Assembly: GCA_030247675.1 (NCBI GenBank)
Contig: JAOTRX010000004.1
Span: 114,910-178,909 of the forward strand
From: Desulforhopalus sp.
Lineage (GTDB): Bacteria > Desulfobacterota > Desulfobulbia > Desulfobulbales > Desulfocapsaceae
Reading direction: 5' to 3'
DNA length: 64,000 bases
The notes under the pieces were generated by a model that was not told where the DNA came from, made no database searches, and was given only the letters and a program-made list of their open reading frames with translations. The translations under genes were made by a program, and so were the position numbers. This document shows positions 49,004 to 57,959 of this stretch, piece by piece; position 1 is the stretch's first letter, and each line of letters begins with the position of its first letter.

Positions 49004-49729
49004 ATGCAGGGAACATTTTATGTGGTTGGTGTGGGGCCGGGAGATCCGCAGCTCATGACTTTGAAGGCGGCGGCAATCCTCAAAAAATGTCCCGTCTGGT
49101 TTGTCCCATCGGCCTTTGAAAACGGCGGCAGCATGGCCCTGAAGATCGCCTCGGGGGCCGTGGAGCAGAAAGGGAAAACTATCCTCAGTCATCGTTTCCC
49201 GATGAAACAGGTGCACCGCGGCCAACCGGCCGATCCCGAGGTAAAAAGCGCCTGGCAGGAAGCGGCCAAGACCATTATGAGTCATCTCCAGGAAGGCCGG
49301 GATGTGGTGTTCCCAACCCTGGGCGATCCGGCCATCTATTCAACCGCTTACTATGTCTGCGAAACCCTTCAGGAATACGGCTCGCCCTTCAGGGTTGAAA
49401 TTGTTCCCGGGGTCTCGGCCATTGGTGCCTCTTCCGCCGCCGCCACCGTGCCGCTGTGCCTGGGCGATGAGCGGCTGGTGGTCATTCCGGCGACCTTTGA
49501 AAACGAGCGCATCCGCGAACTGCTGAACCTCTGTGACGTGGCGGTGTTTATGAAGGTACATACGGTCATGGAACGCCTGGTTGGTTTGCTCGATGAGTTG
49601 GGGCTTGCCGACAAGGCGGTACTCGTCGAACGGTCAAGCCTTGAAGACCAGAAGATCTGGACCAATGTCCGTGAGGCGGTCGGCCGGGAAATCCATTATT
49701 TCTCGACGATGGTAGTACGCAAGGGATGA
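49004..49729 (+). CDS. cbiL: Cobalt-precorrin-2 C20-methyltransferase
   Basis: FYVVGVGPGDPQLMTLKA, FPM, TLGDPAIYST, IVPGVSA, FMKV, YFSTMVV. Confidence 0.95.
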   Translation: MQGTFYVVGVGPGDPQLMTLKAAAILKKCPVWFVPSAFENGGSMALKIASGAVEQKGKTILSHRFPMKQVHRGQPADPEVKSAWQEAAKTIMSHLQEGRDVVFPTLGDPAIYSTAYYVCETLQEYGSPFRVEIVPGVSAIGASSAAATVPLCLGDERLVVIPATFENERIRELLNLCDVAVFMKVHTVMERLVGLLDELGLADKAVLVERSSLEDQKIWTNVREAVGREIHYFSTMVVRKG

Positions 49730-49852
49730 GAGGCTCTGCGGTGTCCGACAAAAAAAGGGACGAGATCCTGGCAGAGAAAGCCAAGGAGGCTTTCACACGC
49801 TGCGGCAATTGTGCCCAAGCATCGTTTGCGGTTCTTCAGGATGCATTCACGC
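49726..49852 (+). pseudogene. 5' fragment of a C_GCAxxG_C_C-family redox protein
   Basis: AKEAFTRCGNCAQASFAVLQDAF resembles this family's N-terminus; family-like sequence stops at about 49852, where reverse-strand intI sequence begins. Confidence 0.6.
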
Positions 49853-50432
49853 TTGATATCATCCACCCCAAGCAGCTTTGGGCCTTTCCTTTCTACATAT
49901 GTTTGGAAACTGCGGGTGCATGACATGTGGGACTCCAAGGTTCTTACTGAATCATGCCGCAATTGAAGCCTGCTTTCATACTCAGTTCTACCCGCCGCCA
50001 GTCGGCTCCAGTCAATTTTGGGGTTTCCGGCATCTTTTCGCCGGTTGCCTGGATTATGACTTTTCCCTTCCGCGCATCTAATTGTCCTTGAGTTCACCCG
50101 CTTTCTTTGTTATGAAAAAGTGTGCCTTCCTCTTTTATCAAGTTGTTGTTCTGCTGATTTTCATAATTTGGCGAGTATCGCTGGGAAGCTGCATCTTCCA
50201 GAATAGTTCGATGGCCTTTTGCGCTTGCAGCCGCAACATTTCAGGTTGATTGATTTTGCCTAGTTTTTTGATAAAGACAAGAACCGAAGATTTCCAAGTG
50301 AATGAGGGTTTATCGTTCAGGGAAAAATCCCAGTAATACCGCAACTATTTTATGAAAAAATGGCAGTCTTCGATAGGAACACCCTGATCGTTGTTAAAAG
50401 GAGAGAGGTTGTTTGCAATAGCACGTGGAAGC
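49852..50432 (-). pseudogene. intI: Integron integrase, N-terminal remnant (catalytic domain deleted)
   Basis: IK*LRYYWDF...FIKKL...QAQKAIELF (in-frame TAG at 50345-50347), then after a frameshift LQLRHDSVRTLESHMSCTRSFQTY..K.PKLLGVDDIK, resembling the LRHYS.RT..Y..W SAM-like domain; divergent from an attC array. Confidence 0.75.
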
Positions 50433-50477
50433 AGGGCCCTGTGGTTATATAGGTATAGGTACCACCTGTTTTCTGCA

Positions 50478-50526
50478 TGTTATAGCTGAGTTGAGCAGCT
50501 TGTCTGCTCGTACGAAACTTATGCCC
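50478..50526 (-). promoter_or_regulatory. Conserved element upstream of intI containing the GAGCAG-ACAAG-CTGCTC palindrome
   Basis: Lies between the intI 5' end and the putative attI; a near-identical copy sits at 22858-22905. Confidence 0.55.
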
Positions 50527-50564
50527 TTGTGGTATATGCAGTTAGTAGACGACCTGCATCCTCC

Positions 50565-50591
50565 TGAATGCGTTGTATAGAAGCGTTAGGC
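50565..50591 (+). mobile_element. Putative attI site (core GTTAGGC at 50585-50591)
   Basis: First exact GTTRRRY core after the intI 5' end with no upstream attC-type left arm; AATGCGTT...AAGCGTT short direct repeat. Confidence 0.5.
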
Positions 50592-50610
50592 TCGGAGATA
50601 GAGGACTATA

Positions 50611-50736
50611 GAATAACTTGTTGAACTTTTGATATTGCATGAAAAATACAAGAAGATAGGCGCGTATTTTGCTTTTCTAGTTAATATCACTTTTATGGGT
50701 GTTGGCTGGAAGGTTCCGTCCAGTTAATACCTTGTT
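50611..50736 (+). mobile_element. Degenerate attC site, core interrupted by a MITE
   Basis: R'' GAATAAC, L'' GTT-G-AACT, L' AGTTAAT, 5-bp spacer, GTT; the R' continues as GTTAGTC after the MITE. Confidence 0.5.
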
Positions 50737-50835
50737 GAGTCTGTAGAAAAAGGCAATTCTTGATGAATTGGCTTATATGATATCAAGTAGTTACGAGTCA
50801 CAAAAAGCTCGTTTTCGGGGTTTTTCTACAGACTC
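50737..50835. mobile_element. 99-bp MITE / internally deleted IS
   Basis: Perfect 15-bp terminal inverted repeats GAGTCTGTAGAAAAA / TTTTTCTACAGACTC flanked by a GTT direct repeat. Confidence 0.8.
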
Positions 50836-50857
50836 GTTAGTCCTCTGGAGATAGCCC

Positions 50858-51067
50858 ATGAAAAAGGCAGAATTCGAGCAGGCGGTTCGAGATGAGCTTC
50901 GGCGCGTCCCAGCTGAGGAACGTCGAACCTGGGATGACAACAAACTGTTTTTCTGGTTCATGAAGGCTAAGAGCGATAACCCGGACCTCACCTGGGACCG
51001 GTGCCCAGGTGATCCTTGGCAATGGGTCCCTGGCATTTGTAAATACTTGATCGGCCCAAATGTTTGA
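50858..51067 (+). CDS. 69-aa hypothetical cassette protein
   Basis: RBS GGAG after the GTTAGTC core; stop codon just before an attC. Confidence 0.7.
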   Translation: MKKAEFEQAVRDELRRVPAEERRTWDDNKLFFWFMKAKSDNPDLTWDRCPGDPWQWVPGICKYLIGPNV

Positions 51068-51073
51068 ATATCG

Positions 51074-51176
51074 GACGAACCCCACGTTCAACTCGGACCC
51101 AACCGACACTGGCAATATTCATGTCTCTGTTCATCTTCCGGTCTCCGATTGGCCCGGTTAACTTCTTTCGTTGGGT
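51074..51176 (+). mobile_element. attC site
   Basis: R'' GACGAAC, 5-bp spacer, L'' GTT-C-AACT, L' GGTTAAC, R' GTTGGGT (exact GTTRRRY). Confidence 0.8.
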
Positions 51177-51184
51177 ATTTAAAA

Positions 51185-52351
51185 ATGGCAAACACGGTAT
51201 TCATTCTTGGAGCTGGATTTTCTTTCGACGCAGGTATTCCTCTCCTCGGAAGATTCATAGAAAGGATGCTTTTGATTGCTGCTGAAAGAGATAAAACTAC
51301 AGGTAAGCTTTCTGGAAATGATAGGAAGCTGTTTGACAAAGCCTTAGATATTCGCGACTCGATGGATGGCTACCATGGGCGAATCTCTTTTGACGACAGG
51401 AACATTGAGGATATCCTTTCTATGCTGGCCTTTAGCGTAATGGGAACTACTGGCCTAAGGAAACCTCGTGCGAATCTTGATGCGTTTATACAAGCGATCT
51501 CGAGAACTATTGAGCTAACTTGCGCGGTTAAGCACCCAGGACCACCGATTGAAAAAAAATCAGGTTTTACAATTGTTGATACTGGACCTGCAATGTACCG
51601 CCGTTTTTGGCAAGCGCTCTTTAAGGCATATAATACTGGCATGGACTTTCCTTGCCTTATTACTTTCAATTATGATCTGGTCCTAGAGCGAAGTCTTTTT
51701 CAGGTTTTAATTAACAAGATTTATAACCCCTCTAAAAACCGTTGTCCTTTTGACAGCTTCCACTTGAATTATTCGTATAAAAACTCGCCAAACTTCTATG
51801 GTGCAATTGAGCCATGTCAATATCAGTTACCAGAACACTCGTATGTACATGGAACAAAGGTCATTCCGAAAGAGGTGCAGGGGGGCAAACACTTGAATAT
51901 CGATATACTTAAGTTGCATGGGTCTCTGAATTTCTCAAGGCCAATAACAAGCGAGCATAATCAAAATCCATGTGAAGTAGTGGAGAACCCATATATATTG
52001 CCGCCTATATCAAACAAGTCTGCTAGTCCCGCAGGTGAAGAAATTTGGGGAAGAGCGCTTACTGAACTAAGAAATGCCAAGAATGTTGTTTTTATTGGGT
52101 ATAGCTTACCAACAACTGACATCTATATGCAATTCTTTATTAAGGCGGCTCTTGGACCAAATAAAGGTTTAGAAAAAGTGATCGTGATCGATCCTGTTTT
52201 TAATGAACCTTCTCAAGAATGTGAAGATATGAAAGTTAGGTATAAGAATTGTTTCTCTGAGCAACTCCGTCGTCGTCTTTCCTTTTCACCAATTACGGCA
52301 GCAAAGTTCGTTGGTGAACTAAGCAAAGATCCTGGTGCATATATTTATTGA
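51185..52351 (+). CDS. SIR2-like (SIR2_2) NADase-domain cassette protein
   Basis: VFILGAGFS, ITFNYD, KLHGSLN, LPP, VFIGYS sirtuin motifs; AT-rich; start placed after the attC crossover. Confidence 0.85.
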   Translation: MANTVFILGAGFSFDAGIPLLGRFIERMLLIAAERDKTTGKLSGNDRKLFDKALDIRDSMDGYHGRISFDDRNIEDILSMLAFSVMGTTGLRKPRANLDAFIQAISRTIELTCAVKHPGPPIEKKSGFTIVDTGPAMYRRFWQALFKAYNTGMDFPCLITFNYDLVLERSLFQVLINKIYNPSKNRCPFDSFHLNYSYKNSPNFYGAIEPCQYQLPEHSYVHGTKVIPKEVQGGKHLNIDILKLHGSLNFSRPITSEHNQNPCEVVENPYILPPISNKSASPAGEEIWGRALTELRNAKNVVFIGYSLPTTDIYMQFFIKAALGPNKGLEKVIVIDPVFNEPSQECEDMKVRYKNCFSEQLRRRLSFSPITAAKFVGELSKDPGAYIY

Positions 52352-52412
52352 TAGCTCAGTAGGTTGGGACAGATACCAAAATGATAAATGAAGGGACAGG
52401 CAATATATACTG

Positions 52413-52460
52413 CACTAACAATATAATGCACCGGGTGAGCCGGTGATCATAATGTTACCA
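52413..52460 (+). mobile_element. Short (48-bp) attC site
   Basis: CACTAAC-aatat-AAT(G)CACC-GG-gtgag-CC-GGTGATC-ataat-GTTACCA. Confidence 0.7.
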
Positions 52461-52479
52461 TTTTGAACAAGGAGAAAAA

Positions 52480-53508
52480 ATGAAGGTATTTCTTAGCTGG
52501 TCTGGAACCAGAAGTCATAAAATTGCGATGGTATTTAGGGATTGGTTGCCATCAGTAATCCAAGAAATCACTCCCTACGTGTCCTCCGAAGATATTGATA
52601 AAGGAGCACGGTGGAGTACAGATATCGCGAAGGAGCTTGAGGACTCAACATTCGGCATTCTTTGTGTCACAAGAGAAAATATTAATGCGCCTTGGCTTAC
52701 TTTTGAAGCAGGTGCATTATCAAAGACTATGGACAAATCATTCGTTAGTCCATTTCTATTTGATATCAAACGTTCTGAAGTAGATGGACCTATTCTCCAG
52801 TTCCAATCCACAATTTTTGAAAAAGATGACATTCAAAAACTTGTGAAAACGTTAAATAAGGCGTGCGGCGAAAATGGATTATCGGATGAGCGTCTCGGGA
52901 AGGCCTTCAATGTTTGGTATCCAACACTCGAAAAAGACCTAGAAGGACTTAAACAGCAGGTAGTACCTGACTTGAATCCTGAAAAACAAGAGCATATTGC
53001 TTCACCAGATTCGCAGGAGATCCTGGAAGAAATATTAGAACTTTCACGAAGCAACCAGAAGTTAATTAGGAATCCTGATGGTGCGTTTGGATCGCAGCTA
53101 GAGGAAACCCGTCAAATTGTAAAAGAAATATTGGATAGGTTGGATCGTCCGAACCCATTTAAGGGGAGAAATCCTAGGCGAATTCATCCGATGATGATCG
53201 AGGAAGTAATGCATTCTACTGCAATGAGTATGAATGGCTATGTTGGCATTCAAATGACACTGGCGCTGATCCGCCAAGATTTTCCATGGGCGTATGAGTC
53301 TGGTATGGAAGCAATCACCATTTTAAAATCTCCTGCTTCAAAAGAGGACAAACAAAGCGCATTAGAAGGCTTCTATCGTATTCTGGAATTATCCTTTGAT
53401 CATCCTATCATGCGGGATCAATACGAGAACAACAAGGAAATCCATATGATAGCAAGGGAACTACCTCGTTTGCTTAAGCGTGCCTTTGATAAAGCTCTTG
53501 AGGGCTAA
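52480..53508 (+). CDS. TIR-domain cassette protein with C-terminal extension
   Basis: MKVFLSWS, SSEDIDKGARW, GILCVT, PWLTFEAGAL (catalytic Glu position); the stop TAA lies within the attC R'' box. Confidence 0.85.
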   Translation: MKVFLSWSGTRSHKIAMVFRDWLPSVIQEITPYVSSEDIDKGARWSTDIAKELEDSTFGILCVTRENINAPWLTFEAGALSKTMDKSFVSPFLFDIKRSEVDGPILQFQSTIFEKDDIQKLVKTLNKACGENGLSDERLGKAFNVWYPTLEKDLEGLKQQVVPDLNPEKQEHIASPDSQEILEEILELSRSNQKLIRNPDGAFGSQLEETRQIVKEILDRLDRPNPFKGRNPRRIHPMMIEEVMHSTAMSMNGYVGIQMTLALIRQDFPWAYESGMEAITILKSPASKEDKQSALEGFYRILELSFDHPIMRDQYENNKEIHMIARELPRLLKRAFDKALEG

Positions 53509-53593
53509 CAAAATTATCAATCAGACCGCATGAACGTTGGTGCCACTATACGACAAGTTCATTGGTGAACTCTGGTTACAATAGCCGTGGGTG
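53503..53593 (+). mobile_element. attC site with mutated R' core
   Basis: R'' GGCTAAC, L'' TAT-C-AATCAGA, L' TCTGGTTACA, inner ATGAAC/GTTCAT repeat, R' GTGGGTG. Confidence 0.6.
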
Positions 53594-53852
53594 GTAAATA
53601 GGGCGTTTATTAGTTCGAAAGCCGAAAAATCCAGATCAACAATGTAAATTCATATCCAGGGCAAGGTTTCCCATCGCTATGCTCCAATTTCTGCTTGCTT
53701 TTTGGCTATTGTGCCGGTCATGTTTCGTTGCCCGCAGTCGTCGAGTTTTTTGCTGGGTTTGATTTTCATTGGAAAGGCGCAAAGTTCTCGTTTGGCTCTT
53801 TCCTTTCTTTGAGAGTCAGGATTAGATTCCATTTCTTGGTCGAATAAGTTAG

Positions 53853-56735
53853 ATGTCGACGCCCTTAATGAAAAATTATAGAAAAAGAGGAGCTATAATG
53901 TCACCGTATTCAGCCCAGGGTATCACTTCGATAAAAATAAAAAGACTGGCAAGAATTCTCTTTCATGATTTACGCAAAAATCCTTTACTAACTTTACTTT
54001 CCGATAACTCCATAAAAATAGAAATCGAGTATTTATTTTTCTTCTTGCGTTGGATTATGCCTTTAGCATTGCTTGTTAGATTTATATTACATGAGGACAA
54101 GGATGGCGATAAGGGCTTGACTCTTTATACAAATTACGATTTCTATATCATATTAATATTTTTTATAATTTACTTGTTTTTCACGCATAAGAAATTTCAT
54201 TCTCTAAATAATCAAACCGAGGCATCGGAAAAGAACTGGGGCAAATTCACATCGGTAGCTGTATTCTTCGATATTTCATTCATTACTGCATTTTATGTAC
54301 TTGCTAATAATCCAAGATCTGAAATCCCAATAATGTATTTTATCCCCCTTGTTTGGTCAGCAATTTATGTACCATTAAAGAAAAGTCTTTTTGGAATAAT
54401 AAGTGTTGGCATATCATTTACAGTCGGTACAGGTATTATTGGTTATCAATCATTGAACTCAACTAATTTAATAAATGAATTGATTGAAATGACACTAGTG
54501 TTAATGCCGAAATTGCTATTCTTACCGATAGTAGTTCTCTTTCTTTTATGGAATACAATTAACCGCAAACTCCAAGAGAACATGTTGCTCGCTTTGTTTG
54601 AACATTCTCCAGAAGGTATTTCATTCATTGGTCAGAAAAGCTGCAATCTCACAAGACCAGGGAGTGATATGCAGATATTAAATTTAAATGCCGCCCAGCA
54701 ACGACTAACACCTAATGCAAAAACAAATAATAATAGTTGTAGAGAAGAATTTCAGTCCTATACACTGGAAAGAACGAGTGTTTGTCCATGGTGTCCTGCT
54801 GAAAAAATCTTAGACAATAAAGCAAAACACAGTAGGAGCCTAACAAAGAACATTTCGCCATTAGGGCATCCAACCGCAGAAGAAATTTCGTTTTCTGATG
54901 CAAGTGCAACACCTTGTTATGACGAAAATGGTCATGTCATCGCTGCTGTAAAATTTGTAAAAGATGTAACGCCACAAGTATATACTGCATTTTTTGCAAC
55001 AGAAGTACTACGTCTTCAGACAGAAGAAGACGTTCTAATAACAAGTTCAGAATTTTTCAGAAAGATGTACAAGGCGGAAAGTGCAAGAATTTTAAGATTT
55101 GATATAAATAATAGTAATATACTTGGGATAGTAGCACAATCGGATATTAATAATCCATCTGGAAGTATTGTAACGGAGTTTACAGAATCTATATCAAATG
55201 AGGTAAAGCGTTTTTTTTCCGAATGCCCATCAGAAATAGATATTATAAATCGAAAGAGAGATCTTAAAGTGGGTGTCAAAATCACTGGTTGTTTAGATTG
55301 GGAGGAATATTGTTATCCAGCCTCAAAGAACCCCAATATTATGGAAATTGCGGTGAAGTTTAAATTAGAACGTGGCTTAATAATACCAATAAAAAGTGAT
55401 GATGCCTTGCTCGGTTTTGTTTTGGTAGACCAACCAGGGCATAATGTTCGTTTATCCCAATTAAATATTTTACAAGGGCAGTTGGCAGCTCAAATTGCAT
55501 TTCTAGCTGTAGACAGGGCCAAATCTTTCAGCGCAAAAAATGAAGAAATAAACACAGGGGAAAAGAAAACTAAGAGTTTGAATGATATTCAGACTCTTTG
55601 TGTGGATATGTTGAAATCAGGAAATAAAGATGAGATTTTAGGTAAAGCGTTGATCGGCACCACCTCTGGACCTGGATTAGGGTATTCTCGGGCTATATAT
55701 CTTAGCTTAATTGATAATACTTTAAAATTCGAGCTTGGAATAGGACCGATTACTGAAGAAGAAGCTGGCCACGATTGGCAAAATAGTAAAGATATTGACA
55801 ATATGTCAGAATATTATCAGAGTCCCAATTGGCTAAGTGGTATTCAAAGTAACCACATTACTACCCAATGCAAGATATGCCCCCATATTCTATTGAAAGA
55901 TATCGAAAACAGTGTTGTTGTTCAATCAATTAATAATATCCAAGGCAATAAAGGTGGAAAAGACGACTCATTTAGAAAAACTCACCTAGCGATTCATTTT
56001 GGAATTAATAGTGACTTTGTTGTTTCCCCTGTATTCTCAGGTAAAACAGTTATAGGAATAATAATTGCAGACAAGAGGCACCACCTTAATAACAATATTT
56101 CATTTGATAAAATTCAACATTTGTTTTTTCTAACTGCTTTTACTGGCGCATGCGCTATTAGCAGCCAATTAAATAGAGATCGGAGTGATGCACCTGAACG
56201 TTTCCTTCTTGAGGTACTTCGATTATTACAATCTAAGTATGATAATGAAAAGGTAAATGTTTACAAATTATATAACGTGGCCTTAAAGGTGGGTGAAAGG
56301 TTAGGTTGTACAAAAAATGAGCTTAGAGCAATCAAGGTATCTTCTTTGGCAATATGTTATACACATTTCTGTTTTCCTGATTCTTTGATTTTCGGTGATG
56401 AGAGATTAGAATCCCCAATGGATAATAGTTACATATTTAATCATCCGGACCGTGCTCGTGGGTTGATTAGACAAATTTGTGGAGACGAAGAAATTGCAAA
56501 TTCAGCCTATCAGCATACTCAAATTCTAGGGAAATATCCTGAAAGCTCGTCTTACCCCATTAAGGTTGCGAGAATATTGGGAATATGTGAAGGTTACTTG
56601 GCAATAACTGAACCAAAAAATTACCGTAAAGAAACCTCCTTAGATCATGATAAAGCGATAGAAGAATTACGGATAAAGTTAGGGACAAATGAAAATCTAA
56701 TTATTGATGCTTTAGATTTATCTATGAGAGAATAA
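53853..56735 (+). CDS. Multi-TM PAS-GAF-GAF protein with a degenerate HD-GYP-like C-terminus
   Basis: About 5-6 TM segments; PAS-like with CPWCP; GAF-like (GLGYSRAIYL; GIIIADK); C-terminal NHPDRA...QHTQILGKYP...ARILGICEGYLAITEPKNYR follows the HD-GYP layout without the HD pair; very AT-rich. Confidence 0.6.
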   Translation: MSTPLMKNYRKRGAIMSPYSAQGITSIKIKRLARILFHDLRKNPLLTLLSDNSIKIEIEYLFFFLRWIMPLALLVRFILHEDKDGDKGLTLYTNYDFYIILIFFIIYLFFTHKKFHSLNNQTEASEKNWGKFTSVAVFFDISFITAFYVLANNPRSEIPIMYFIPLVWSAIYVPLKKSLFGIISVGISFTVGTGIIGYQSLNSTNLINELIEMTLVLMPKLLFLPIVVLFLLWNTINRKLQENMLLALFEHSPEGISFIGQKSCNLTRPGSDMQILNLNAAQQRLTPNAKTNNNSCREEFQSYTLERTSVCPWCPAEKILDNKAKHSRSLTKNISPLGHPTAEEISFSDASATPCYDENGHVIAAVKFVKDVTPQVYTAFFATEVLRLQTEEDVLITSSEFFRKMYKAESARILRFDINNSNILGIVAQSDINNPSGSIVTEFTESISNEVKRFFSECPSEIDIINRKRDLKVGVKITGCLDWEEYCYPASKNPNIMEIAVKFKLERGLIIPIKSDDALLGFVLVDQPGHNVRLSQLNILQGQLAAQIAFLAVDRAKSFSAKNEEINTGEKKTKSLNDIQTLCVDMLKSGNKDEILGKALIGTTSGPGLGYSRAIYLSLIDNTLKFELGIGPITEEEAGHDWQNSKDIDNMSEYYQSPNWLSGIQSNHITTQCKICPHILLKDIENSVVVQSINNIQGNKGGKDDSFRKTHLAIHFGINSDFVVSPVFSGKTVIGIIIADKRHHLNNNISFDKIQHLFFLTAFTGACAISSQLNRDRSDAPERFLLEVLRLLQSKYDNEKVNVYKLYNVALKVGERLGCTKNELRAIKVSSLAICYTHFCFPDSLIFGDERLESPMDNSYIFNHPDRARGLIRQICGDEEIANSAYQHTQILGKYPESSSYPIKVARILGICEGYLAITEPKNYRKETSLDHDKAIEELRIKLGTNENLIIDALDLSMRE

Positions 56736-56846: not shown

Positions 56847-56894
56847 TTTCAACAATAAAATTCACCAGACAAGCTGGTGATTTTACCGTTATCT
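56847..56894 (+). mobile_element. Short (48-bp) attC site
   Basis: TTTCAAC-aataa-AAT(T)CACC-AG-acaag-CT-GGTGATT-ttacc-GTTATCT. Confidence 0.7.
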
Positions 56895-56912: not shown

Positions 56913-57959
56913 ATGCAAATTGAAAAAAGATATCAGGTTTTTATTAGCTCCACATACCTTGATTTAGAGCTAGAGAGAAATGAGGTGATGCAAGCGCTTT
57001 TAGAGCTTGAATGTATGCCTGCAGGTATGGAACTTTTCCCGGCGGCGAATGATACTCAATGGGATTGGATTAAAAAGGTAATACTAGAATCAGATTATTA
57101 CATTGTTATGGTTGGTGGCCGATATGGCACTATTTCACCAGCTACAGGCTATAGTTACACTGAAATGGAATATCGGTTTGCTTTGGAAAATGATATCCCC
57201 ACAATTGGTTTTATCAGGAATAAAGCTGAAGAAATTCCTCACAAATTTTGCGAAACTGATACTGAGAAAACAAAGAAATTAGAATCATTTAAAAATTTGG
57301 TTAAAACGAAGCTTTGTAAATTTTATGATTCGCCATCAGATTTAGGAGCAAAGGTTAGCAGAAGCATAACGCAATTAAAGAAACAATATCCTGCTGAAGG
57401 CTGGGTAAAAGGAAAGGTTTTAAAAGAACTACCATCTTCTGAAGATTTATTCAAACTCAAAAAAGAAAATGATAACCTTAAAAGTCAAATAGCAGAACTA
57501 GAGAAGAAAATTGATTCAAAATTCGAAAATTATTCAAGCGGCAACGATACTGTTGATATCAAATTCAATTTCATTAGAAAAAAACTTGATCCTTCAACTG
57601 GCGGTTTCAAGAAAATTGGGGATGAAATTAAATTTTCTAGATTTACTTGGGATCAAATTTTCTACTTCGTTGGTGGTTCAATTTTTAATAAGGAAAGATA
57701 TTTGCAATTAAAATTTGTCGAGTTAATTGAGGAAAAAGAAAGAATAAAACTTGAAGCCCAATACAGCGATGAAAGAATATATGATTTTAGTGTATCGTCA
57801 TCTGTATTTAGGAAAATAATTTTTCAATTAAAAACACTAGAATTAATACATGTTAGCGATCAAATTGGGCCAGATGAATATTTCGGCTTAACCAAAAAAG
57901 GCCATAAGCTATTAGAGCAATTGGCCGCGATTCCTAAAGGTGATTGCAAAATAGAATAG
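56913..57959 (+). CDS. DUF4062-domain cassette protein
   Basis: RYQVFISSTYLDLELER, AGMELFPA, SDYYIVMVGGRYG, SYTEMEYRFA, then a coiled coil and a C-terminal winged-helix-like end. Confidence 0.85.
   Translation: MQIEKRYQVFISSTYLDLELERNEVMQALLELECMPAGMELFPAANDTQWDWIKKVILESDYYIVMVGGRYGTISPATGYSYTEMEYRFALENDIPTIGFIRNKAEEIPHKFCETDTEKTKKLESFKNLVKTKLCKFYDSPSDLGAKVSRSITQLKKQYPAEGWVKGKVLKELPSSEDLFKLKKENDNLKSQIAELEKKIDSKFENYSSGNDTVDIKFNFIRKKLDPSTGGFKKIGDEIKFSRFTWDQIFYFVGGSIFNKERYLQLKFVELIEEKERIKLEAQYSDERIYDFSVSSSVFRKIIFQLKTLELIHVSDQIGPDEYFGLTKKGHKLLEQLAAIPKGDCKIE

What the first reader, a model, noticed from the sequence alone, without database searches (positions are those of the whole stretch)
52480..53508. 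TIR cassette directly behind the SIR2 cassette: a Thoeris-like pair built from separate cassettes?
Seen: a TIR domain with the catalytic-position Glu (WLTFEAG), a coiled-coil linker and an unrecognised C-terminal domain (HPMMIEE...DFPWAYE). An attC separates it from SIR2. Known: Thoeris couples TIR signal makers to a SIR2 effector through a SLOG domain, which I do not see here. Inference: either two independent defences or a non-canonical TIR-SIR2 circuit.
Basis: partly seen in the sequence, partly recalled or inferred. Interest (0 to 1): 0.65.

Follow-up and report, generated by a model that had tools for sequence, protein, structure and literature searches.

The report
Stand-alone TIR defence gene cassette
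The TIR gene is real and sits on its own integron-type cassette, but it is an independent single-gene candidate phage-defence protein that happens to lie beside a SIR2 gene, not half of a Thoeris-like TIR-SIR2 pair.

Summary
ORF 52480-53508 (+) encodes a 342-aa protein with three parts: an N-terminal TIR domain with an invariant Glu76 at the catalytic position, a long helical neck, and an all-helical C-terminal domain that matches no Pfam, PDB or BFVD entry. A 48-bp attC-like palindrome (52413-52460) separates it from the SIR2 gene.

None of 31 genomic TIR loci holds the SIR2 family. None of 80 SIR2-family loci holds the TIR family. None of 28 other TIR-bearing genomes holds a full SIR2-family member. 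Neither gene has any conserved neighbour, and no ThsA, ThsB or SLOG profile matches.

The TIR fits the PADLOC 'TIR-TM' profile (4e-116). This is the TIR component of the validated 2TM-1TM-TIR system of phage P2_AC1. Both TM partners are absent from this genome and from 26 homologue-bearing genomes.

The closest homologue (86% aa) lies in a different cassette array. DNA homology there starts about 10 nt before the ATG, 14 nt after the upstream attC-like GTT, and ends in the downstream attC.

The wider family couples a conserved TIR+neck to hypervariable C-termini and occurs alone on phages, a 4.7-kb plasmid and defence islands.

Best reading: a self-contained TIR NADase-type abortive-infection protein. 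Ordinary to moderately interesting.

The parts
51185..52351 (+). Neighbouring stand-alone SIR2-family gene (388 aa from ATG 51185). It is an independent cassette and not a partner of the TIR gene.
   Evidence: Pfam SIR2_2 1.3e-4; partial PADLOC SIR2/Aga_SIR2 hits; no ThsA or SLOG. About 2000 homologues of 385-405 aa. Invariant GAGxS, NYD and KLHGS motifs. No conserved neighbour in 80 loci.
52413..52460 (+). 48-bp attC-like imperfect palindrome at the end of the SIR2 cassette. AAC at 52417-52419 pairs with GTT at 52454-52456, and there is one extrahelical base.
   Evidence: Four pattern copies in the genome. A covariance model finds seven copies at E<=6e-5, the four it was built from plus three more, including a small array at C16:307.9-308.8 kb. 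Homology with the L131 TIR cassette begins 14 nt after this GTT.
52470..52474 (+). Shine-Dalgarno AGGAG, 5 nt before the ATG.
   Evidence: Read directly from the sequence. Conserved in L131.
52480..52884 (+). TIR domain (aa 1-~135). The catalytic-position Glu76 codon is at 52705-52707.
52885..53145 (+). Helical neck (aa ~136-222). Up to about aa 200 it is conserved together with the TIR domain across the superfamily, including phage P2_AC1 gp02.
   Evidence: AF2 helices 136-159, 167-197 and 203-222. BLASTP gives 52% identity to AC1 gp02 over aa 1-199. Most of the 150 best representatives match only aa 1-~200.
53188..53505 (+). C-terminal all-helical domain of unknown fold family (aa ~237-342). 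Invariant PW.Y..G and F..HP motifs. Proposed sensor or regulatory domain.
   Evidence: Unrelated to the AC1 gp02 C-terminus.
53503..53563 (+). First half of the TIR cassette's own attC-like region. GGCTAAC overlaps the TAA stop at 53506-53508. The 3' end of the site is unclear or decayed.
   Evidence: blastn homology with L131 runs to 53563, 55 nt past the stop. L038 has GGCTAAT...GTTAGGC at the same place.

Best explanation
The gene encodes a self-contained, single-protein candidate anti-phage defence of the TIR NADase type. It was acquired as its own integron-type gene cassette, and its position next to a SIR2 cassette is a coincidence of array assembly.

Shown:
- It has a TIR fold with an invariant Glu at the catalytic position.
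- It belongs to the same profile family as the TIR protein of the experimentally validated 2TM-1TM-TIR system of phage P2_AC1.
- That system's two membrane partners are absent here.
- It has no conserved neighbour of any kind.
- Relatives ride alone on phages, a tiny plasmid, defence islands and cassette arrays.
- The family combines a strongly conserved TIR+neck (aa 1-200) with highly variable C-terminal tails.

Inferred:
- The C-terminal helical domain senses a phage-derived trigger or keeps the protein autoinhibited.
- The neck mediates oligomerisation.
- Trigger-dependent assembly of TIR domains forms composite active sites that hydrolyse NAD+, possibly with cyclic ADPR side products. This depletes NAD+ and aborts the infection.
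For: TIR identity and Glu76.

Family link to the validated AC1 system: the window protein scores 385.9 bits and AC1 gp02 393.1 bits on PDLC03016. AC1 gp03 and gp04 are the 1TM-TIR and 2TM-TIR components. Defence activity of the cloned three-gene AC1 locus is reported in PMC9122126.

Partners absent: PDLC02977 and PDLC02978 give no hit in the own genome or in 26 genomes with full-length homologues, while the AC1 control is positive. None is found in 15 viral loci.

No conserved neighbour: in 31 loci the neighbours are Gabija, IetA, AbiL, PARIS AriA, mads, OLD and integrases.

No SIR2 co-occurrence.

Solitary cargo: it is the only gene on a 4.7-kb Serratia Mob plasmid annotated as neither replication nor mobilisation, apart from nadS, and an isolated gene between Q and the holin genes in phage mEp390.

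Conserved module plus variable tails: 4341 representative clusters at E<=1e-30. Most of the best 150 match aa 1-~200 only. Among the window protein plus 117 representatives, the tails fall into 84 BLAST clusters.

Cassette status: the 86%-identical homologue lies in another unidirectional array, with 82% DNA identity confined to 52470-53563.
Against: No biochemical or phage data exist for this protein or for any solitary member that I could find. In AC1 the three genes were cloned together, so it is not shown that such a TIR works without partners. The Pfam TIR_2 score is just under the gathering threshold. The AF2 model has low confidence around the active-site loop (residues 75-86, pLDDT <50). 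The fold-search E-values are modest. A sensor role for the C-terminal domain is pure inference from its variability. A trans-acting effector elsewhere in the genome cannot be excluded by neighbourhood analysis.
Confidence: 0.6

Rival explanations
1. Non-canonical Thoeris-like circuit. The TIR makes an ADPR-derived signal that activates the adjacent SIR2 NADase despite the lack of a SLOG or Macro receptor domain.
For: The two genes are adjacent on the same strand, 128 bp apart. Both domains occur in Thoeris. Both have intact catalytic motifs.
Against: The two families never co-occur: 0/31 TIR loci, 0/80 SIR2 loci (55 of them with >=1.2 kb of flank), 0/28 other TIR-bearing genomes with a full SIR2-family member, and no SIR2 family in 40 relatives. 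There is no ThsA, ThsB or SLOG profile hit. The SIR2 protein is almost entirely catalytic domain, with no room for a ligand sensor. An attC-like site lies between the genes, and cassette-limited homology shows they were acquired separately.
Confidence: 0.03
2. Orphan remnant of a 2TM-1TM-TIR system. The TIR needs membrane partners as in phage P2_AC1 and is inactive on its own here.
For: It fits the PADLOC TIR-TM profile as well as AC1 gp02 does. AC1 defence was shown only for the three-gene locus.
Against: The solitary 340-345-aa form is the rule. There are more than 4000 full-length homologues at 54-86% identity across many phyla, with a near-invariant TIR domain. None of 26 host genomes or 15 viral loci carries the TM partners. 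The C-terminal domain differs from that of AC1. This is the pattern of a functional stand-alone family under purifying selection.
Confidence: 0.1
3. Signal-generating TIR whose effector is unlinked, elsewhere in the genome or a housekeeping target, rather than a self-contained NAD+ depleter.
For: Thoeris ThsB proteins are small TIR proteins that signal rather than deplete NAD+. The extreme conservation of the TIR surface could reflect a specific product.
Against: Defence signal and effector genes are as a rule co-transferred. This gene travels alone on a 4.7-kb plasmid, as an isolated phage gene and as a single cassette. No neighbour is conserved in 31+15 loci.
Confidence: 0.12
4. Not a phage defence. 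A TIR protein with another role, such as element addiction or exclusion, or interference with eukaryotic TIR signalling as in TcpB/BtpA.
For: It is carried on mobile elements. Some bacterial TIR proteins are host-targeting effectors; BtpA and TcpB appear among the fold hits.
Against: There is no secretion signal or secretion-system context. Neighbours in other genomes are dominated by known defence genes. The family includes the TIR of a validated anti-phage system. Hosts are mostly environmental bacteria.
Confidence: 0.08

Closest known systems
TIR component (gp02) of the 2TM-1TM-TIR system of Escherichia phage P2_AC1 (Rousset et al. 2022, PMC9122126; PADLOC PDLC03016 'TIR-TM')
   Same: Same profile family (385.9 vs 393.1 bits). 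52% identity over aa 1-199, covering the TIR domain and helical neck, with the same catalytic-position motif APW..FEAGAL.
   Different: The C-terminal ~140 aa are unrelated to the C-terminus of AC1 gp02. The 1TM and 2TM partner genes are absent from the locus and from the whole genome. It is carried on an integron-type cassette, not in a P2 hotspot.
Thoeris (ThsB TIR + ThsA SIR2-SLOG)
   Same: A TIR gene next to a SIR2 gene. Both domains use NAD+.
   Different: No ThsB or ThsA profile match, no SLOG or Macro domain, no co-occurrence of the two families anywhere else, and an attC-like site between the genes.
SpbK of Bacillus subtilis ICEBs1 and other single-protein TIR abortive-infection NADases
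   Same: Best structural match of the TIR domain is the SpbK filament 9phb. Single gene on a mobile element. TIR plus a non-catalytic domain. This is the functional analogy I propose.
   Different: No detectable sequence homology. Different non-TIR domain. The trigger for the window protein is unknown.
Integron cassettes that encode phage defence (BRiCs; bioRxiv 10.1101/2024.07.02.601719)
   Same: A promoterless defence-type ORF followed by an attC-like site, in a unidirectional array with other defence-type cassettes. ThsB-like TIR cassettes are reported there.
   Different: Here the array has no adjacent intact integrase, and the attC-like sites of one type are only 48 bp. This TIR family is not mentioned in that paper.

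Membership tests
Thoeris | TIR protein recognised as ThsB | tested here: not met
   PADLOC scan at E<=0.1 returns only PDLC03016 TIR-TM and no ThsB model.
Thoeris | Effector with a signal-binding domain (ThsA SIR2-SLOG, or Macro/other) | tested here: not met
   The SIR2 protein hits only SIR2_2 and partial SIR2/Aga_SIR2 models. No SLOG, ThsA or Macro.
Thoeris | Conserved co-occurrence of the TIR and effector genes | tested here: not met
   0/31 TIR loci, 0/80 SIR2 loci, 0/28 other TIR-bearing genomes and 0/40 relatives.
2TM-1TM-TIR (Rst_2TM_1TM_TIR) | TIR component matching the system's TIR profile | tested here: met
   PDLC03016 4.1e-116, protein 1-317 against profile 1-285/293. AC1 gp02 itself scores 2.7e-118.
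2TM-1TM-TIR (Rst_2TM_1TM_TIR) | 1TM partner gene | tested here: not met
   PDLC02977 has no hit in the whole own genome; the AC1 control scores 1.6e-76.
2TM-1TM-TIR (Rst_2TM_1TM_TIR) | 2TM partner gene | tested here: not met
   PDLC02978 has no hit in the whole own genome; the AC1 control scores 1.2e-58.
Catalytic TIR (NADase) domain | TIR (flavodoxin-like) fold | tested here: met
   Pfam TIR_2 4e-6, 0.2 bits under the cut-off. Foldseek top hits are solved TIR domains, TM on target 0.59-0.69.
Catalytic TIR (NADase) domain | Conserved catalytic glutamate | tested here: met
   E76 is invariant in 41 homologues and aligns with the Glu of the SSWCLDEL motif of AtTIR 3jrn. The catalytic role of that Glu is from my own knowledge. 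The alignment E-value is weak (0.08) and the model is locally uncertain.
Catalytic TIR (NADase) domain | NAD+ cleavage activity | not testable with these tools
   Needs an enzyme assay.
Integron gene cassette | ORF followed by an attC recombination site (paired R''/R' with AAC/GTT, L boxes, extrahelical bases) | tested here: inconclusive
   The upstream boundary is a clear attC-like 48-bp site. The TIR cassette's own 3' site starts with GGCTAAC on the stop codon and is homologous to the L131 attC for 55 nt, but its right half is not recognisable. The IntegronFinder attC model is not available here.
Integron gene cassette | The same gene found in other arrays with homology limited to the cassette | tested here: met
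   Window 52470-53563 matches L131 2385-3479 at 82% over 1096 nt. The flanks are unrelated and the neighbours differ.
Integron gene cassette | Adjacent integron integrase and attI | tested here: not met
   No TIGR02249 match in the window. Intact and frameshifted intI lie elsewhere, at C16:548001-548954 and C16:50751-51692. tblastn of that IntI against 49600-50700 gives no hit. The array is at best a cluster of attC sites without an integrase.

The most novel reading that the evidence does not exclude
The window protein represents the dominant, so far uncharacterised solitary form of a very large superfamily (>4300 clusters at 50% identity). In this form a near-invariant TIR+neck effector module is fused to swappable C-terminal sensor domains, each tuned to a different phage trigger. 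On this reading the validated three-gene AC1 system is an atypical offshoot, and the family is a major single-protein abortive-infection system that current defence-finder rules miss because they require the TM partners.
Probability: 0.45. Interest if true: 0.5.

Novelty: new variant of a known kind. Interest (0 to 1): 0.3.

Why it matters
The result removes a tempting but wrong inference, that an adjacent TIR and SIR2 gene make a Thoeris-like circuit. It shows with comparative boundaries that defence genes in this array were collected one cassette at a time. It also flags a practical annotation gap. The TIR family of the 2TM-1TM-TIR system is mostly found without its TM partners, so rule-based tools presumably leave thousands of probably functional solitary TIR genes uncalled. 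The conserved-effector and variable-tail architecture would make the family a convenient model for studying how TIR NADases are coupled to phage sensing.

Tried and rejected
1. Thoeris membership: rejected. No ThsA, ThsB or SLOG hits and no co-occurrence.

2. Complete 2TM-1TM-TIR system: rejected. The partners are absent genome-wide.

3. The two minus-strand ORFs at 49696-50344 have no Pfam hit at E<=0.1. There is no TIGR02249 hit in the window and no tblastn hit with the genome's own IntI.

4. My regex and RNAfold heuristic for attC sites was too noisy to delimit the 3' attC of the TIR cassette.

5. Promoter and terminator scans of 50300-54000 gave counts at chance level, so they say nothing about co-transcription.

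6. Fold searches of the C-terminal domain against PDB and BFVD found nothing. A PDB sequence search with the family profile found only coiled-coil noise.

7. The 17-nt repeat at 52304-52320 and 53555-53571 (16/17 identical): by my estimate about 0.2 such pairs are expected by chance in 10.5 kb, so I did not pursue it.

9. A Pfam test of the truncated ORF at 49726-49920 gave no hit.

Full report
**Setting**

The window is G000:C24:114910-178909. A low-GC stretch (33-45% GC against about 57% in the flanks) runs from about 50.0 to 60.1 kb. All its sizeable ORFs lie on the + strand:
- a 69-aa ORF;
- a SIR2-like gene (51185-52351);
- the TIR gene (52480-53508);
- a 960-aa membrane/GAF-like protein;
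- a DUF4062 protein;
- a 184-aa hydrophobic protein;
- a GNAT acetyltransferase.

**The observation**

TIR identity:
- Pfam TIR_2 matches aa 3-99 at E 4e-6, 27.8 bits against a 28-bit cut-off.
- PADLOC PDLC03016 'TIR-TM' matches nearly full length at 4.1e-116.
- An AlphaFold2 model built on 41 homologues (mean pLDDT 72) has an N-terminal α/β domain. Its best PDB matches are solved TIR domains (SpbK filament 9phb, SPARTA TIR-APAZ, BtTir, AbTir, PdTIR; TM on target 0.59-0.69, probability ~1).

Catalytic Glu: Glu76 in APWLTFEAG is invariant in the alignment. It aligns with the Glu of the SSWCLDEL motif of Arabidopsis AtTIR. That this is the catalytic residue is from my own knowledge.

Linker and C-terminus:
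- Residues 136-222 are predicted as long helices.
- Residues ~237-341 form a helical bundle, pLDDT about 80 when modelled alone.
- That bundle has no Pfam family, no PDB sequence relative and no structural match in PDB or BFVD.

All elements of the observation therefore hold.

**The attC claim**

The 128-bp spacer holds a 48-bp imperfect palindrome (52413-52460) with AAC...GTT ends and one unpaired base. A near-twin lies at 56847-56894.
- A pattern search found two more copies in the genome.
- A covariance model built from the four copies found three further copies at E<=6e-5. Two of them bracket a single gene in a small same-strand array of four ORFs at C16:307.5-310.0 kb.
- The sites always follow genes on the same strand.
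- The genome encodes a bona fide integron integrase (C16:548001-548954, 395.8 bits) and a frameshifted one (C16:50751-51692). None lies next to this array.

**Decisive comparative evidence for cassette status**

The closest homologue (P0002, 86% aa identity) lies on a sediment-metagenome contig (L131). That contig is a unidirectional array:
- a Cap15-like effector followed by a nucleotidyltransferase-like gene;
- the TIR gene;
- an unknown 338-aa gene;
- a Cys-rich repeat peptide followed by a radical-SAM enzyme;
- a helicase;
- a RES-domain gene.

Classical-looking attC sites lie between the genes.

blastn aligns window 52470-53563 with L131 2385-3479 at 82% over 1096 nt. Homology begins about 10 nt before the ATG, 14 nt after the GTT of the preceding site. 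It ends 55 nt after the stop codon, inside an attC whose left core GGCTAAC overlaps the stop. Sequences outside that span are unrelated.

A second close homologue (L038, Methylocucumis, 85%) has GGCTAAT...GTTAGGC at the same place.

The TIR gene has therefore moved as a unit of its own, and the SIR2 gene is simply the preceding cassette.

**Is there a TIR-SIR2 pair?**

- The TIR family is large: more than 4000 clusters at 90% identity, proteins of 340-345 aa, 54-86% identical across Desulfobacterota, Zixibacteria, Bacteroidota, Nitrospirota, Campylobacterota, Gammaproteobacteria, Bacillota, Planctomycetota and a CPR genome.
- In 31 genomic loci with up to 8 kb of flank on each side, tblastn with every gene of the window's island found nothing.
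- Clustering the neighbours of those loci found no conserved partner.
- The immediate neighbours are a changing set of known defence genes and integrases: Gabija GajA, IetA, AbiL, PARIS AriA, mads, OLD.
- The SIR2 gene belongs to a separate family of about 2000 stand-alone proteins of 385-405 aa. It too has no conserved neighbour in 80 metagenomic loci.
- Family HMMs searched crosswise gave zero hits in both directions. The SIR2 loci offered 376 kb of flanks, and 55 of them have at least 1.2 kb on one side or the other.
- At whole-genome level, none of 28 other TIR-bearing genomes has a full SIR2-family member; two have unrelated 43-bit partial hits.
- Among 24 congeneric and 16 same-order genomes, none has the SIR2 family and only two have distant TIR relatives.
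- No ThsA, ThsB or SLOG profile matches either protein.

The Thoeris-like reading is therefore not supported. The juxtaposition is unique to this genome.

**What the TIR protein is related to**

PDLC03016 is the TIR component of the three-gene system of phage P2_AC1.
- AC1 gp02 scores 2.7e-118 on that profile.
- gp03 is PADLOC '1TM-TIR' and gp04 is '2TM-TIR'.
- Rousset et al. cloned the three genes and showed protection against lambda, LF82_P8 and P2-like phages. They proposed that the TIR signals to the membrane proteins (PMC9122126).

The window protein is 52% identical to gp02 over aa 1-199, but its C-terminus is unrelated.

Both TM partners are absent from the whole own genome and from 26 genomes that carry full-length homologues, with the AC1 record as positive control. 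They are also absent from 15 viral contigs that carry TIR+neck relatives.

An exhaustive phmmer search of 1.84 billion representatives found 4341 clusters at E<=1e-30. Most of the best 150 match only aa 1-~200. Among the window protein plus 117 such representatives, the C-terminal tails fall into 84 BLAST clusters, the window's type being the largest with 21.

Relatives also occur alone in two other settings:
- on a 4.7-kb mobilisable Serratia plasmid, where it is the only gene annotated as neither replication nor mobilisation apart from nadS;
- as an isolated, oppositely oriented gene between Q and the holin genes of phage mEp390.

**Mechanism**

Shown: a catalytically equipped TIR, a conserved helical neck, a variable tail, and solitary mobility within defence contexts.

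Inferred, from established knowledge of TIR NADases (activity requires self-association; examples are SpbK, SPARTA, TIR-SAVED and TIR-STING):
- The tail senses a phage trigger or autoinhibits the protein.
- The neck oligomerises.
- Assembled TIR domains deplete NAD+ and abort the infection.

Rivals are a signal-generating TIR with an unlinked effector, a non-functional orphan of the AC1-type system, a non-defence role, and, least likely, cross-talk with SIR2.

**Novelty and score**

- Defence genes on integron cassettes are already described (bioRxiv 10.1101/2024.07.02.601719).
- TIR NADase defences are well known.
- The family is already represented in PADLOC.
- What is new is modest. This is the solitary form, which in my samples is the only form found apart from AC1, and it carries a distinct unrecognised C-terminal domain. 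The window also gives clear evidence of cassette-wise assembly.

I rate it a new variant of a known kind, interest 0.3.

**Limits**

- The attC model of IntegronFinder was not available.
- The co-occurrence samples are tens of loci, not the whole database.
- The AF2 model is poor around residues 75-86.

Noticed in passing
window 56847-56894; G000 C1:1612804-1612851, C15:126342-126389, C16:188120-188167, C16:307978-308025, C16:308724-308769: A family of 48-bp attC-like palindromes (TTCCAAC...AATgCACCGG...CCGGTGAT...GTT). There are seven copies in the genome, each just downstream of a gene in a low-GC stretch. The copies at C16:307.9-308.8 kb lie within a small same-strand array of four ORFs (155-206 aa) with no integrase nearby.
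   Followed up: partly
G000 C16:548001-548954 (-) and C16:50751-51692 (+): One intact integron integrase (TIGR02249, 395.8 bits, inside a 444-aa open frame with an unusually long N-terminal extension) and one frameshifted copy. The 48-bp site family was not found next to either.
   Followed up: no
L131:4844-6333: In the metagenomic cassette array that holds the closest TIR homologue, a 130-aa peptide made of about 13 tandem CTINQP(x)GKGG repeats is followed directly by a radical-SAM/SPASM enzyme. This looks like a RiPP precursor and maturase pair carried in a cassette array.
   Followed up: no
L131:666-2296: A Cap15-like membrane effector (Pfam Cap15_TM and Cap15_CD_rec) followed by a 337-aa nucleotidyltransferase-like protein. 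This is probably a minimal CBASS carried as a two-gene cassette directly upstream of the TIR cassette.
   Followed up: no
window 53853-56735 and 56913-57959: Two downstream cassettes. One is a 960-aa very AT-rich membrane protein with weak PilS-like 6TM and GAF hits. The other is a DUF4062 protein (1.7e-25) with a helical region and a C-terminal wHTH-like hint. The second 48-bp site lies between them.
   Followed up: no
window 51097-51176: An 80-nt hairpin with perfectly complementary ends, ACCCAAC...GTTGGGT, just before the SIR2 start at 51185. It is a plausible attC of the preceding 69-aa cassette. It argues that the SIR2 start is ATG 51185 (388 aa, as in homologues) and not TTG 51149.
   Followed up: partly
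window 52304-52320 and 53555-53571: A 17-nt direct repeat (16/17 identical). One copy is inside the SIR2 3' end and the other is in the attC region after the TIR gene. By my estimate it is marginally above chance expectation.
   Followed up: no
window 49726-50100: At the left edge of the island a short + strand ORF (65 aa, with a CGNCAQA motif) overlaps a minus-strand ORF. Neither has a Pfam hit. The GC drop begins at about 50.0 kb.
   Followed up: partly
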